IMG/VR virus record: IMGVR_UViG_2671181012_000022 | DNA length: 42,877 nt | Source of the DNA: a virus | Taxonomy: Duplodnaviria > Heunggongvirae > Uroviricota > Caudoviricetes | Reading direction: 5' to 3' (one strand) | Shown here: piece after piece, positions 9,001 through 12,000 of the stretch | Layout: every line of letters starts with the position of its first letter | Numbering within the stretch: position 1 is the first letter of the stretch | Made by a program: the position numbers

Positions 9001-12000
9001 CATGGCCCACAAACGGCGGATGAGCTGGCACTTATGTTCGGGATTACCTCCCGCCGGGCGAATTCATCGCTGGCCATGGCAATCAGCAAAGGGCGTCTGA
9101 TTCGCGTAAATCAGGGCGGTAAATTTCGTTACTGCATACCGGGCGCTGATTTACCGGCAGAGCCGGAAGCTGCATCCGTAGCGGACACCGATGGTAAAGC
9201 CTTTCCTCAGCCAGCAGGTGTTGCGTTACCAGTCTAGGAAACGACGACACAGGAAGAAATGAAAACAGAAATCGTGGAAGACATTGTGAAGTTACAGCCA
9301 TCGGTCACCGAAACGAAAGTAGATGACCTGATTTTACCATCGCTGCATGTGGCTAACCGCGAGCTGCGCCGGGCAAAAGGTCAGGTTCAGAAGTGGGAGC
9401 GAGTCTGCGCCGCGCTGCGGGAGCTGAACAAGTGCCGGGATATTCTCCGGGATATTACCGCCACCAGAGAACAGCAGCGGTGAGTGGGTGGAAGACGTGG
9501 TGCCGGGCTGAAATTCTGATACTCCGGCAGTGCGCGGGAACAATGAAGGTAAAAAGCATTGGCGCGCTTATCGGACGAACTGAAGCGGCAGTGAGAACGA
9601 AGGCACGGGAGCTGGGCATCAGTATGATGTTACGTGGTGATTTTCACCCGTCGGCAAAATATTCTCAGCGTGATATTGAGCTGGCGCGGCAACTGCATCA
9701 GAGAGGCATGCAAAGAAGGGAAATTGCCAGAAAATTAGGCATGCCGCTGCACATAGTGAATAACTACGTTTATTTCGACAGGAGGGTTCAGGCGTGAGGG
9801 TGAGAATTTATATCGCCGGTCCAATGACGGGATATGAAAATTTCAACCGCGAGGCATTTCACAGGGCGGAAGAAGCACTGAAACGGGAAGGGCATACCGT
9901 TTTAAACCCGGCAGTACTTCCTGACGGGCTGACACAGCCGCACTACATGGATATTTGCATGGCAATGATTCGTTGTGTGGATGCGATTTACATGCTGAAT
10001 GGCTGGCAGCGGTCAGCGGGCGCTAAGGCAGAGCTGGCACTGGCGGAGAAACTGGGGCATGCGGTGATTTATCAGGAGGTGGCTCAATGAGAGAGGTTAA
10101 CTATGAGGCGCTTCGTGAGGCAGCACAAAACTATCAGTCGACGCTGGCGTGGTATCAGGCTATCCCGGACAGCCCAAATGCTGAACGGGATTGTGATGCG
10201 GCTCTTGCTGCGTTTAAGCGTCACATCCGTCATCGGGAAGCGGATATTATCGCTGATTTGCTGGATGGACTGGAAGAAGCAAAATCACAACTCAACGAGC
10301 AACGTGAGTATTACGAAGGTGTTATCTCGGATGGGAGTAAGCGCATTGCTGAACTGGAAGCGCGGGAAGTTCAATTACCGACTCGCTACGACCTTCGATA
10401 TGGACACCCGATAAATGCAGATGAGCGACAAGTCATGATACCTAAAGAAAATGGCAGTTGGCTTTACCTGATTGACCTAGAACACGCATTACGCGTCGCT
10501 GGCATTCGCATCAAAGGAGAGGAGCATGGAAATAAAACCAGAGGATGAGTTAAGCAATATCGTTTTATTTCCGGTAAAAGAGGATGACCCTCGTAATCAG
10601 GTTAATTTTCTTTATGAGCCATCGGAAAGACCATATTGTCATCACGCCTCTGTTCGGGTTGACGAAAAAGAGCGTCAGGTCCGCTGTAAATCTGCGGTGC
10701 AGTTGTGGAGCCGTTTGACTGGATGCTCTCTGTGGCGAAAAGAGAAACCAGACTGGCAGATGATGTAAGGCTATTGCGCCAGGAGGAACAGGAAAGGCGG
10801 AAAAATATAGAAAAGTTAATTCAGATTGAGCGTAACGCGAAAGCGCGGATACGCAGGGCGACAAAATCCAGAACTGAATAAATAAATTTAGCGCTGTAAA
10901 TAAAATCTAATCCTTAACTGGAGGTATATTTATGTTAAATACACAGAAATCCATTAATGCGGAAAAATATAACGAGTGGGCAAGAAAATTCTCTGAGCAG
11001 ATTTTTAAAATTACTGGCAATGAGAATGCGGCAAAAAATGAATTAGAACCGTGGACGCCTGAAGGAGCCGACCCAAATTATTGCTGGAGGGAGGTTGATC
11101 CAGTTGATGCTGCAAATGAAGATATGAGTTATCACAACGATTAATGTCAGGAGGCCGCCCGAAAGGGCGGTAATGAATGGTCACATTATTTAGAAAAAAA
11201 TATCCGCGAAAGAGTAGAACAACAGAATTTCTGTTTCTCATTCTGTTTATCGTGTTGATGATACCGATATCCCCGTTAATCCTAGTCTGGATAATCGGAA
11301 AAATAATTGAGCCAGTTATTGAATTGTATAACGACGTGGTATGGGCGTCATTCAACACACTGCACAATAAAATTAATCCGTATAAGGAAAGCTGATATGG
11401 CACTGACGAAAAAACAACGCGCAGAACTGCGCATGAAGTTCGGTGGTCGCTGTGCTTATTGCGGCTGCGAACTTGGCGAAAAGTGGCATGCAGACCATGT
11501 AAAACCGGTCATTCGTTTTGATGGAAATATGCTTCACCAGGAACGTGACGATATATCCAACATGGTTCCGGCATGCCACCCATGCAATCTGCACAAGCAT
11601 TGCAGTAGTCTGGAAGATTATCGGCGAATTATCAGTGATGGTCGTCGTGAATTCCTTGCGTCCGGGAAAGGCAAAGCGCTGGTTCGTATGGGATTGGTTG
11701 AAATGAAATCTGACCCGGTTGTGTTCTGGTTTGAAAAATATCAAGAAGGGGCTACGGCATGACGACTTTTACCAGAGAGCAGTTAATAGCTCACGCAGAG
11801 GAGACTATTGAAGCACAGAGACTGTGCATACCGGGCACAATCGACCATGACATCATCCGCACATATAAGATGGATATTGCTGTTCTGGAAATCGCACTGG
11901 TATCGCTGGCAGCAGAGCCAGCCGGTAAATTGCATGAATACAAACCAGTGGGATATCAGCGTCTGGTCGATGAGTTATCTGGAGCGGAACGGACTGATAA

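What the first reader, a model, noticed from the sequence alone, without database searches (positions are those of the whole stretch)
9794..10090. DUF4406-like (nucleoside deoxyribosyltransferase-fold) early gene
A small protein with this fold is encoded in the early region, translationally coupled to its neighbours. Proteins of this fold act on nucleosides or nucleotides, so an early phage copy could have a nucleotide-pool or anti-defence role. The function is unknown.
Basis: inference. Interest (0 to 1): 0.4.

Follow-up and report, generated by a model that had tools for sequence, protein, structure and literature searches.

The report
Small prophage DUF4406 nucleotide-glycosidase-like gene
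This is a real, conserved 98-residue early gene of an E. coli lambdoid prophage whose protein has the nucleoside-deoxyribosyltransferase fold; databases already label it DUF4406, and it probably cuts the base off deoxynucleotides, but its role is untested.

Summary
ORF 9794-10090 (+) encodes a 98-aa protein that matches Pfam DUF4406 over its full length (E=3.5e-37). Its start and stop each overlap a neighbouring gene by 4 nt, and dN/dS is about 0.1-0.3. A confident AlphaFold model (pLDDT 92.8) matches DUF1937, the CMP hydrolase MilB, nucleoside 2'-deoxyribosyltransferases (NDTs), DNPH1 and, more weakly, TIR domains.

The gene sits in the early rightward operon of a Rac-like/lambdoid prophage next to ompW. 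RefSeq already holds the identical protein, named as a DUF4406 protein, and 1186 of 5426 complete E. coli genomes carry the gene.

The invariant motif S74-x-G-A-x-x-E80 and Y6 align with the phosphate-binding Ser, the nucleophile Glu and the deoxy-selecting Tyr of DNPH1. The general-acid Asp is replaced by Cys55, and the C-terminal segment that completes the DNPH1 active site is absent. In other phages, DUF4406 genes often lie directly beside dATP/dGTP pyrophosphohydrolase genes.

Best reading: a minimal glycosidase or transferase that acts on 2'-deoxynucleoside 5'-monophosphates through a covalent Glu80 intermediate and conditions the nucleotide pool. No paper in the searched library tests this. 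An anti-defence role is neither supported nor excluded. The finding is ordinary and already annotated.

The parts
9794..10090 (+). Coding sequence of the 98-aa DUF4406 protein (minimal NDT-superfamily fold: four beta strands and four helices)
9780..9785 (+). Shine-Dalgarno AGGAGG, 8 nt upstream of the GTG start, inside the 3' end of the upstream gene
   Evidence: read from the sequence
9794..9797 (+). GTGA overlap of this gene's start with the upstream gene's stop. The same 4-nt overlap is kept in most of the 85 related loci, although the upstream gene differs between them
9809..9811 (+). Codon TAT for Tyr6. It aligns with Tyr13 of rat Rcl, Tyr24 of human DNPH1 and Tyr7 of LlNDT, the triad Tyr linked to 2'-deoxy selectivity. 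In 121 family representatives it is Y in 104 and F in 16
9956..9958 (+). Codon TGC for Cys55. It occupies the position of the general-acid Asp/Asn (Asp69 Rcl, Asp72 LlNDT, Asn of DmtZ). In the family: C 76, D 20, A 8, T 8, G 5
10013..10033 (+). Codons for Ser74 to Glu80 (S-A-G-A-K-A-E), the invariant S-x-G-A-x-x-E motif. Ser74 aligns with the phosphate-binding Ser87 of Rcl (Ser98 of DNPH1) and with Asp92 of LlNDT. Glu80 aligns with the nucleophile Glu93/104/98
10074..10079 (+). Shine-Dalgarno AGGAGG for the downstream gene, inside the 3' end of this CDS
   Evidence: read from the sequence
10087..10090 (+). ATGA overlap of the downstream gene's start with this gene's stop
9516..9797 (+). Upstream neighbour (context only): small HTH DNA-binding protein. 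The start is taken from the near-identical RefSeq locus; the mechanical ORF list extends it to 9393
10087..10548 (+). Downstream neighbour (context only): Ead/Ea22-like protein
6410..6437 (+). pR-like sigma-70 promoter match between the divergent repressor-like and cro-like genes; probable origin of the transcript that carries this gene (a consensus match only)

Best explanation
The gene is a genuine delayed-early gene of the rightward (pR-type) operon of a Rac-like/lambdoid E. coli prophage. Its translation is coupled to both neighbours. It encodes a minimal member of the N-(deoxy)ribosyltransferase superfamily, Pfam DUF4406. The most likely mechanism is as follows. The protein binds a 2'-deoxynucleoside 5'-monophosphate, with the phosphate held by Ser74 and the glycine-rich loop G9-P-M-T-G13 and the base stacked between Met11 and Met52. 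Glu80, oriented by Tyr6, attacks C1', expels the base and forms a covalent deoxyribose-5-phosphate-enzyme ester. Water then resolves the ester (dNMP N-glycosidase, as in DNPH1 or MilB), or another base does (phosphodeoxyribosyl transfer, as in phage DmtZ). The biological role would be to condition or sanitise the deoxynucleotide pool while the phage replicates; in other phages it may work downstream of a dATP/dGTP pyrophosphohydrolase. Shown here: the gene, its family, its fold, the conserved residues and the operon context. Inferred: the substrate class, the covalent mechanism and the role.
For: Family and fold. Purifying selection. S74, E80 and G9 are invariant in 121 representatives that are at most 50% identical to each other; G76 and A77 are each 120 of 121. 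Alignments to sequence-verified rat Rcl, to sequence-verified L. leichmannii NDT, a MAFFT alignment with DNPH1 and an hhalign to Wayne DmtZ agree wherever each covers the residue: Y6 pairs with the triad Tyr, E80 with the nucleophile Glu, and S74 with the phosphate-binding Ser of the hydrolases. S74 does not match the Asp that binds the 5'-OH in true NDTs. Published roles of these residues: Y24/D80/E104 triad, phosphate coordinated by S98, MilB F17 versus Tyr setting ribo/deoxy preference, and a trapped dRP-Glu104 intermediate (PMC10603095). Uncharged residues in the 5' pocket mark monophosphate substrates (PMC12884076). Phage precedent: DmtZ, an NDT-superfamily dAMP hydrolase and dR5P transferase encoded next to or fused with a dATP/dGTP diphosphatase. 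Parallel neighbourhood: a PF04447 dATP/dGTP pyrophosphohydrolase gene lies directly upstream of DUF4406 in Pseudomonas Hollowayvirus phages (4-nt overlap in Baskent_P6), directly downstream in phi2/MD8/phi297-like phages, and within 1-2 kb in several enterobacterial and other loci, 15 of 168 loci in all. By these two tblastn queries the families occur in only 1.0% and 0.4% of phage records.
Against: The general-acid Asp/Asn of the superfamily triad is Cys in this protein. Family-wide the position is variable (C/D/A/T/G/S), so the chemistry may be slower or different. The protein ends after beta-4 and lacks the C-terminal segment that supplies Ser128' in DNPH1. All alignments to characterised enzymes have low statistical support (hhalign E = 0.016-0.13); they are credible only because they agree with each other and with the fold match. 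I could not inspect model coordinates, so the spatial clustering of Y6, C55, S74 and E80 is inferred, not measured. This window has no PF04447 gene. The neighbourhood association is phylogenetically non-independent, and both genes are typical early-region accessory genes. No biochemical or genetic study of any DUF4406 protein was found.
Confidence: 0.45

Rival explanations
1. It is a true nucleoside 2'-deoxyribosyltransferase (EC 2.4.2.6) that swaps bases between deoxynucleosides for salvage, as many phage records label relatives of this gene.
For: The best Foldseek matches are NDTs. PHROG 355 and many GenBank phage records use this name. Tyr6 and Glu80 are shared with NDTs.
Against: PF05014 scores 16.7 bits, below its cut-off of 28.8. 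The residue that binds the 5'-OH in NDTs (Asp92) is an invariant Ser here, as in the monophosphate hydrolases. The triad Asp is missing. The C-terminal residues contributed by the neighbouring subunit in NDTs are absent. The database names are annotation transfers and are inconsistent: the same single-domain protein is also called dCMP deaminase, MazG-like or hydrolase.
Confidence: 0.1
2. It is a counter-defence enzyme that cleaves the N-glycosidic bond of NAD+, NMN or an ADP-ribose-derived or other nucleotide immune signal. Loss of the general-acid Asp would be tolerated because nicotinamide-type leaving groups need no protonation.
Against: Tyr6 is the residue whose replacement by Phe lets MilB accept ribose; F17Y shifts MilB's preference toward deoxyribose. 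NAD-derived molecules are ribo-compounds. PADLOC gave no hit, and no paper links the family to anti-defence. The fold similarity to NDT, DNPH1 and MilB is stronger than to TIR domains.
Confidence: 0.12
3. It is a non-catalytic nucleotide-binding protein, either a sponge or a regulator, that keeps the binding pocket of the fold but not turnover.
For: The general acid and the C-terminal active-site complement are missing. The protein is very small. Phage sponges for nucleotide signals are known (abstracts listed).
Against: Strict invariance of the nucleophile Glu80 and the S-x-G-A motif across 121 representatives at most 50% identical to each other is what catalysis predicts, not binding alone. 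About 17% of these representatives, and most of the distant members examined, carry Asp at position 55, so those have a complete triad.
Confidence: 0.15

Closest known systems
Pfam DUF4406 (PF14359), as annotated in RefSeq (WP_001376436.1, 'DUF4406 domain-containing protein')
   Same: Full-length HMM match. The protein is identical to the RefSeq entry at the same prophage position in E. coli FHI_NMBU_11.
   Different: Nothing; it is a member. The family itself has no assigned function.
DNPH1/Rcl (2'-deoxynucleoside 5'-phosphate N-hydrolase) and the bacterial CMP/hmCMP N-glycosidases MilB and BcmB
   Different: The general-acid Asp is Cys55. There is no C-terminal beta-5/helical extension, so no equivalent of Ser128'. 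There is no significant sequence match to any solved chain. The protein is about 50 residues shorter.
Phage DmtZ (dAMP N-glycosidase and deoxyribose-5-phosphate transferase of PurZ0 Z-genome phages; PMC12884076)
   Same: A phage-encoded NDT-superfamily protein with S-x-G-x-x-x-E and a non-Asp residue at the triad position (Asn in DmtZ, Cys here). DmtZ is encoded next to or fused with a dATP/dGTP diphosphatase, as some DUF4406 genes lie next to PF04447.
   Different: Not the same family: Wayne DmtZ gives no DUF4406 hit at E<=1, and hhalign gives E=0.11. DmtZ is about 145 aa. This window has no PurZ or Z-genome genes and no pyrophosphohydrolase partner.
Nucleoside 2'-deoxyribosyltransferases (PF05014; L. 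leichmannii NDT, 1F8X)
   Same: Same fold, with the Tyr and the nucleophile Glu at equivalent positions.
   Different: Below the Pfam cut-off. Ser replaces the 5'-OH-binding Asp92, and Cys replaces Asp72. The C-terminal part (Asn123 and the C-terminus) is absent.
DUF1937 (PF09152; PDB 1T1J, structural-genomics protein of unknown function)
   Different: 18% identity, below the Pfam cut-off, and also uncharacterised, so it gives no information on function.

Membership tests
Pfam DUF4406 (PF14359) | Full-length match to the family HMM above the gathering score | tested here: met
   127.1 bits against a cut-off of 22, E=3.5e-37, profile positions 2-91 of 91
Pfam DUF4406 (PF14359) | Family-invariant residues present: G9, F22, S74, E80, plus near-invariant Y51, P39, G76 and A77 | tested here: met
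   All are present in the window protein. Conservation was counted in 121 representatives at most 50% identical to each other
N-(deoxy)ribosyltransferase superfamily (NDT / DNPH1 / MilB fold) | Three-layer alpha/beta fold with a parallel sheet that superposes on solved members | tested here: met
N-(deoxy)ribosyltransferase superfamily (NDT / DNPH1 / MilB fold) | Nucleophile Glu at the start of the helix after beta-3 (E98 LlNDT, E93 rat Rcl, E104 human DNPH1) | tested here: met
   E80 aligns with it, and is invariant in 121 of 121
N-(deoxy)ribosyltransferase superfamily (NDT / DNPH1 / MilB fold) | Triad Tyr on beta-1 (Y7 / Y13 / Y24) | tested here: met
   Y6 aligns with it. In the family it is Y 104 and F 16
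N-(deoxy)ribosyltransferase superfamily (NDT / DNPH1 / MilB fold) | Triad Asp (or Asn) general acid on helix 3 (D72 / D69 / D80; Asn77 in DmtZ) | tested here: not met
   Cys55 occupies this column in four independent alignments. The family shows C/D/A/T/G here
N-(deoxy)ribosyltransferase superfamily (NDT / DNPH1 / MilB fold) | Dimer in which a C-terminal segment of the partner subunit completes the active site (Ser128' in DNPH1) | tested here: not met
   The protein ends 5 residues after beta-4 and has no equivalent segment. Its oligomeric state could not be tested with these tools
Nucleoside 2'-deoxyribosyltransferase proper (PF05014, EC 2.4.2.6) | HMM match above the gathering score | tested here: not met
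   16.7 bits against a cut-off of 28.8
Nucleoside 2'-deoxyribosyltransferase proper (PF05014, EC 2.4.2.6) | Asp/Asn that binds the 5'-hydroxyl of the nucleoside (Asp92 in LlNDT) | tested here: not met
   An invariant Ser74 sits at this position. The significance follows PMC12884076
DNPH1 / MilB-type nucleoside 5'-monophosphate N-glycosidases | Ser of S-x-G-x-x-x-E that coordinates the 5'-phosphate (S87 rat, S98 human, S97 MilB) | tested here: met
   S74 aligns with S87 of Rcl. The role of this Ser is taken from PMC10603095
DNPH1 / MilB-type nucleoside 5'-monophosphate N-glycosidases | Hydrolysis of dNMP or NMP to a free base plus (deoxy)ribose 5-phosphate | not testable with these tools
   Needs an enzyme assay
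Phage DmtZ | Sequence-family membership with characterised DmtZ (Wayne ALY10777 N-terminal domain) | tested here: not met
   Wayne DmtZ-DutZ shows no DUF4406 hit at E<=1. hhalign of the DUF4406 profile against its N-terminal domain gives E=0.11
TIR-domain NADases | TIR family sequence match, with the closest structural neighbours being TIR domains | tested here: not met
Known anti-phage defence or candidate defence proteins (PADLOC-DB) | Match to any PADLOC model | tested here: not met
   0 families at E<=1

The most novel reading that the evidence does not exclude
The clade that holds this protein differs from distant DUF4406 members at three positions: Arg19, a hydrophobic residue followed by L-P-x-G-L after the NPA motif, and Cys55. 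Distant members have Tyr/Phe19, NPAE, and Asp or Ala at 55. This clade could be a distinct, phage-specific enzyme. It might be a natural phosphodeoxyribosyl-transferase, or an N-glycosidase aimed at a non-canonical or signalling (deoxy)nucleotide. Temperate phages might use it as a counter-defence or nucleotide-pool weapon, in some phages together with a DUF550-type dATP/dGTP pyrophosphohydrolase.
Probability: 0.12. Interest if true: 0.65.

Novelty: already known. Interest (0 to 1): 0.25.

Why it matters
DUF4406 is one of the more widespread phage accessory families with no known function. The profile search found 17,617 cluster representatives. The gene is in 22% of complete E. coli genomes and in hundreds of phages of Proteobacteria and Actinobacteria. 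If it is a deoxynucleotide N-glycosidase or transferase, many temperate phages edit the dNMP pool during replication, and its recurrent pairing with dATP/dGTP pyrophosphohydrolases would define a two-step purine-dNTP disposal or exchange route outside Z-genome phages. For this window, however, the finding only restates an existing annotation. The residue-level points (Ser instead of the 5'-OH Asp, Cys instead of the general acid) are modest refinements that suggest which assays to run.

Tried and rejected
1. Sequence searches of the PDB with the protein and with a 36-sequence profile gave only chance hits. Only fold comparison linked it to characterised enzymes.
2. PADLOC and NCBIfam gave no hits. 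Rfam found nothing in 8500-11500.
3. Domain fusions as a clue to function: 36 long homologues carry no second Pfam domain at E<=1e-3, and only noise appears at E<=0.05. Their extensions are uncharacterised Trp-rich modules.
4. Phage records that call relatives 'deoxycytidylate deaminase', 'MazG-like pyrophosphatase' or 'hydrolase' looked like fusions. The three inspected are single-domain proteins of 101-125 aa, so these are naming inconsistencies.
5. An apparent DUF4406-PF04447 fusion ORF in L142 is an out-of-frame long-ORF artefact of a GC-rich genome. The two genes are separate but adjacent.
6. A link to the Kongming dITP system: the only paper holding both terms mentions NDT only for retrons. 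The RefSeq annotation of the near-identical prophage lists no dNMP kinase. Dropped.
7. Literature: three papers mention DUF4406, each with only one or two occurrences in the text, and I did not read them. Searches for NDT-like proteins in phages returned retron effectors and DmtZ.
8. Fixed gene partners in enterobacterial prophages: the upstream gene ranges from 49 to 465 aa (including DnaB) and the downstream gene from 38 to 834 aa, so there is no obligate partner.
9. I could not read model coordinates, so I measured no distances between the putative catalytic residues.
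Full report
THE OBSERVATION

The ORF list gives a 98-aa ORF at exactly 9794-10090 on the + strand, with a GTG start. 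The sequence shows AGGAGG at 9780-9785, 8 nt before the start. The start overlaps the upstream stop as GTGA (9794-9797). The downstream gene's ATG overlaps this gene's TGA as ATGA (10087-10090), and that downstream gene has its own AGGAGG at 10074-10079.

The protein matches Pfam DUF4406 over the whole profile: E=3.5e-37, 127 bits against a cut-off of 22. It gives sub-threshold hits to the related families DUF1937, Nuc_deoxyrib_tr and DUF7768. It also matches PHROG 355, 'nucleoside 2-deoxyribosyltransferase', at 1e-47.

Against 27 distinct homologous loci, 25 give dN/dS of 0.10-0.29 and two encode an identical protein. This is a protein-coding gene under purifying selection, not a chance ORF. 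Rfam finds no RNA family in 8500-11500.

FOLD

An AlphaFold2 model built on a 36-sequence alignment is confident: pLDDT 92.8, pTM 0.86, with a beta-alpha-beta-alpha-beta-alpha-beta topology of four strands.

Foldseek against all PDB chains lists NDTs, DNPH1, MilB and BcmB with probability 1.0.

CONTEXT

The window is a Rac-like/lambdoid prophage. An E. coli chromosome (FHI_NMBU_11) carries a 99.7% identical copy next to ompW. Its gene order is integrase, excisionase, exonuclease, dicB, repressor/cro-like HTH pair, YdaT, DnaT-like, P-like replication protein, DUF1627, small HTH protein, DUF4406, Ead/Ea22-like, HNH, hokD, RusA, Q, methylases, tRNAs and lysis genes.

RefSeq already names the identical protein 'DUF4406 domain-containing protein' (WP_001376436.1; amino-acid identity 1.0). 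The gene occurs in 1186 of 5426 complete E. coli genomes.

A sigma-70-like promoter at 6410-6437 (+) sits between the divergent repressor-like and cro-like genes. No strong + strand terminator-like site precedes about 13137. The gene therefore lies in the early rightward operon, after the replication genes and before Q.

In 85 related loci the 4-nt overlap with the upstream gene is kept in most. The upstream gene itself varies from 49 to 465 aa (a DnaB helicase in L067), and the downstream gene varies from 38 to 834 aa. The gene behaves as a self-contained accessory module with no obligate partner.

THE FAMILY

A profile search of 1.84 billion cluster representatives finds 17,617 with E<=1e-3 and 5,917 with E<=1e-10. 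tblastn finds relatives in 529 phage records from Arthrobacter, Vibrio, Gordonia, Mycobacterium, Pseudomonas, Aeromonas, Rhizobium, roseobacter N4-like phages and others.

Conservation in 121 representatives that are at most 50% identical to each other:
- Invariant: G9, F22, S74, E80.
- Nearly invariant: G76, A77, Y51, P39, M58, P43, A84.
- Position 6: Tyr 104, Phe 16.
- Position 55: Cys 76, Asp 20, Ala 8, Thr 8, Gly 5.
- Asp53 is not conserved.

Longer homologues carry N- or C-terminal extensions with no Pfam match.

COMPARISON WITH CHARACTERISED ENZYMES

I checked the comparison sequences against the PDB. My rat Rcl sequence differed from 2KHZ at one C-terminal residue, which I corrected before aligning. 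My L. leichmannii NDT sequence is identical to 1F8X. Residue numbers were checked.

Four alignments were made: hhalign of the DUF4406 profile against Rcl, against LlNDT, a MAFFT alignment that includes distant DUF4406 members and DNPH1, and hhalign against the DmtZ domain of phage Wayne. Each has weak statistics (hhalign E = 0.016-0.13). Where each covers a residue, they agree with one another and with the fold match:

| Window protein | Rat Rcl | LlNDT | Wayne DmtZ |
|---|---|---|---|
| Tyr6 | Tyr13 | Tyr7 | region not aligned |
| Cys55 | Asp69 | Asp72 | triad Asn |
| Ser74 | Ser87 | Asp92 | Ser of S-x-G-x-x-x-E |
| Glu80 | Glu93 | Glu98 | Glu of S-x-G-x-x-x-E |

Met11 and Met52 fall at the positions of the base-stacking Ile29 and Ile76 of human DNPH1.

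Published work assigns the following roles:
- The triad is Y24/D80/E104. E104 is the nucleophile and forms a trapped deoxyribose-phosphate ester. D80 is the general acid. S98 and S128' (from the partner subunit) hold the phosphate. Phe replaces the Tyr in MilB, which accepts ribose, and the F17Y mutant shifts preference toward deoxyribose (PMC10603095).
- True NDTs use Asp or Asn for the 5'-OH, whereas monophosphate-specific members have small uncharged residues there (PMC12884076).

MECHANISTIC READING

The protein keeps the nucleophile, the orienting and deoxy-selecting Tyr, the phosphate-type Ser and a glycine-rich loop after beta-1. This points to a 2'-deoxynucleoside 5'-monophosphate as substrate and to a covalent Glu80 intermediate. 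Water would resolve it in a hydrolase, or a second base in a transferase.

Two defining features are not met. The general-acid Asp is Cys here. The C-terminal segment that completes the DNPH1 and NDT active sites across the dimer is absent.

Distant DUF4406 members from Pseudomonas phages and actinophages often have Asp at position 55, 'NPAE' in place of 'NPA-V/T/I-LPxGL', and Tyr or Phe in place of Arg19. The clade that holds the window protein is therefore a recognisable variant inside the family. Whether Cys55 acts as an acid, or no acid is needed, cannot be decided here.

NEIGHBOURHOOD EVIDENCE FROM OTHER PHAGES

- In Pseudomonas phage Baskent_P6 (Hollowayvirus), a PF04447 dATP/dGTP pyrophosphohydrolase gene directly precedes the DUF4406 gene with a 4-nt overlap; JBD90 has the same order.
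- In phi2-like prophages and in phages MD8, phi297 and AUS531phi, the PF04447 gene directly follows the DUF4406 gene.
- PF04447 homologues also lie within 1-2 kb in several enterobacterial and other loci. In all, 15 of 168 fetched loci have one nearby.
- By these tblastn queries the two families occur in only 529 and 194 of 50,697 phage records, so chance co-occurrence would be rare. The cases are phylogenetically related, however, and both genes are typical early-region accessory genes, so I rate this evidence as moderate at best.
- The pairing mirrors the DutZ-DmtZ pair of Z-genome phages, where a dATP/dGTP diphosphatase feeds a dAMP N-glycosidase/transferase of the same superfamily.
- DmtZ itself is not a DUF4406 member.
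- This window has no PF04447 gene.

RIVALS

- A true nucleoside deoxyribosyltransferase is unlikely. PF05014 scores below its cut-off, and Ser74 replaces the 5'-OH Asp.
The missing general acid would suit a nicotinamide-type leaving group, and TIR domains are structural neighbours. But Tyr6 argues for deoxy substrates, PADLOC gives no hit, and no paper supports it.
- A non-catalytic binder is possible, but it fits poorly with the strict invariance of Glu80 and its motif.

NOVELTY AND VERDICT

The family, its clan-level relation to NDTs and this exact protein are already in public databases. The held literature contains no functional study: three papers mention DUF4406, each with only one or two occurrences in the text. 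The finding is a correct but ordinary annotation.

- The 5'-pocket residue is Ser, so monophosphate substrates are more likely than nucleosides.
- In this clade the general acid is replaced by Cys.
- DUF4406 genes recurrently sit next to dATP/dGTP pyrophosphohydrolase genes in other phages.

Together these give a concrete, testable hypothesis. I score interest at 0.25. My confidence is 0.45 in the dNMP glycosidase/transferase mechanism and near certainty in the family and fold assignment.

Noticed in passing
L004:2138-3300; L087; L110, L114, L127, L129, L142 (about 3001-4241); phage records MD8, phi297, AUS531phi: A PF04447 (DUF550) dATP/dGTP pyrophosphohydrolase gene lies directly beside the DUF4406 gene in two opposite orders in different Pseudomonas phage groups. 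It also lies within 1-2 kb in some enterobacterial loci (L067, L074, L085). This may be a two-step purine-dNTP disposal or exchange module outside Z-genome phages.
   Followed up: partly
proteins P0150, P0156, P0159, P0167, P0172, P0174, P0198, P0203, P0205 (N-terminal regions): Many long DUF4406 homologues carry one to three copies of an uncharacterised N-terminal module with a motif like L-x-W-L-V-x-N-x-x-x-W-P-T ... G-W-x-W. Others (P0145, P0152, P0188, P0192) start with a W-x-x-A-P-x-G-A-like motif. Neither matches any Pfam family.
   Followed up: partly
L004:3001-3300 (Pseudomonas phage Baskent_P6): This DUF4406 copy reads S-K-G-A-R-L-G-M-R where S-x-G-A-x-x-E is expected, and its Pfam match stops at profile position 80 of 91. 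The nucleophile Glu appears to be lost, possibly through a frameshift, a sequencing error or decay of the gene.
   Followed up: no
L003:2968-3345 (Daob gp55), L005:3004-3369 (Kaylissa gp27), L088:2501-2806: Single-domain DUF4406 proteins are deposited under conflicting names: deoxycytidylate deaminase, MazG-like pyrophosphatase, hydrolase and nucleoside deoxyribosyltransferase. These names do not reflect extra domains.
   Followed up: yes
window 8749-9237: The DUF1627-like ORF upstream is short here (162 aa). In the 99.7% identical RefSeq locus the DUF1627 gene is flagged as a pseudogene with an internal stop.
   Followed up: no
window 16677-16926: Three tRNA genes (anticodons CAT, TCG, TCT) lie between two DNA methyltransferase genes downstream of Q. 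ARAGORN calls the CAT tRNA Met, while RefSeq calls the same gene tRNA-Ile. In the near-identical locus a SASA-family (NanS-like) esterase gene follows about 1 kb after the second methyltransferase. From memory, this layout resembles Stx-type prophages, but no toxin gene is annotated.
   Followed up: partly
window 9393-9797 versus 9516-9797: The mechanical ORF for the upstream HTH gene starts at a GTG at 9393 (134 aa). RefSeq starts the same gene at the ATG at 9516 (93 aa). The start is ambiguous. In phage Rac-SA53 the gene at this position is named lygF.
   Followed up: no
(tblastn of the window protein against phages): Nearly all tblastn alignments stop at query residue 74, just before the Ala-rich S-A-G-A-K-A-E-L-A-L-A-E stretch. 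The low-complexity filter probably masks the catalytic motif, so BLAST-based coverage figures for this family understate the match.
   Followed up: no
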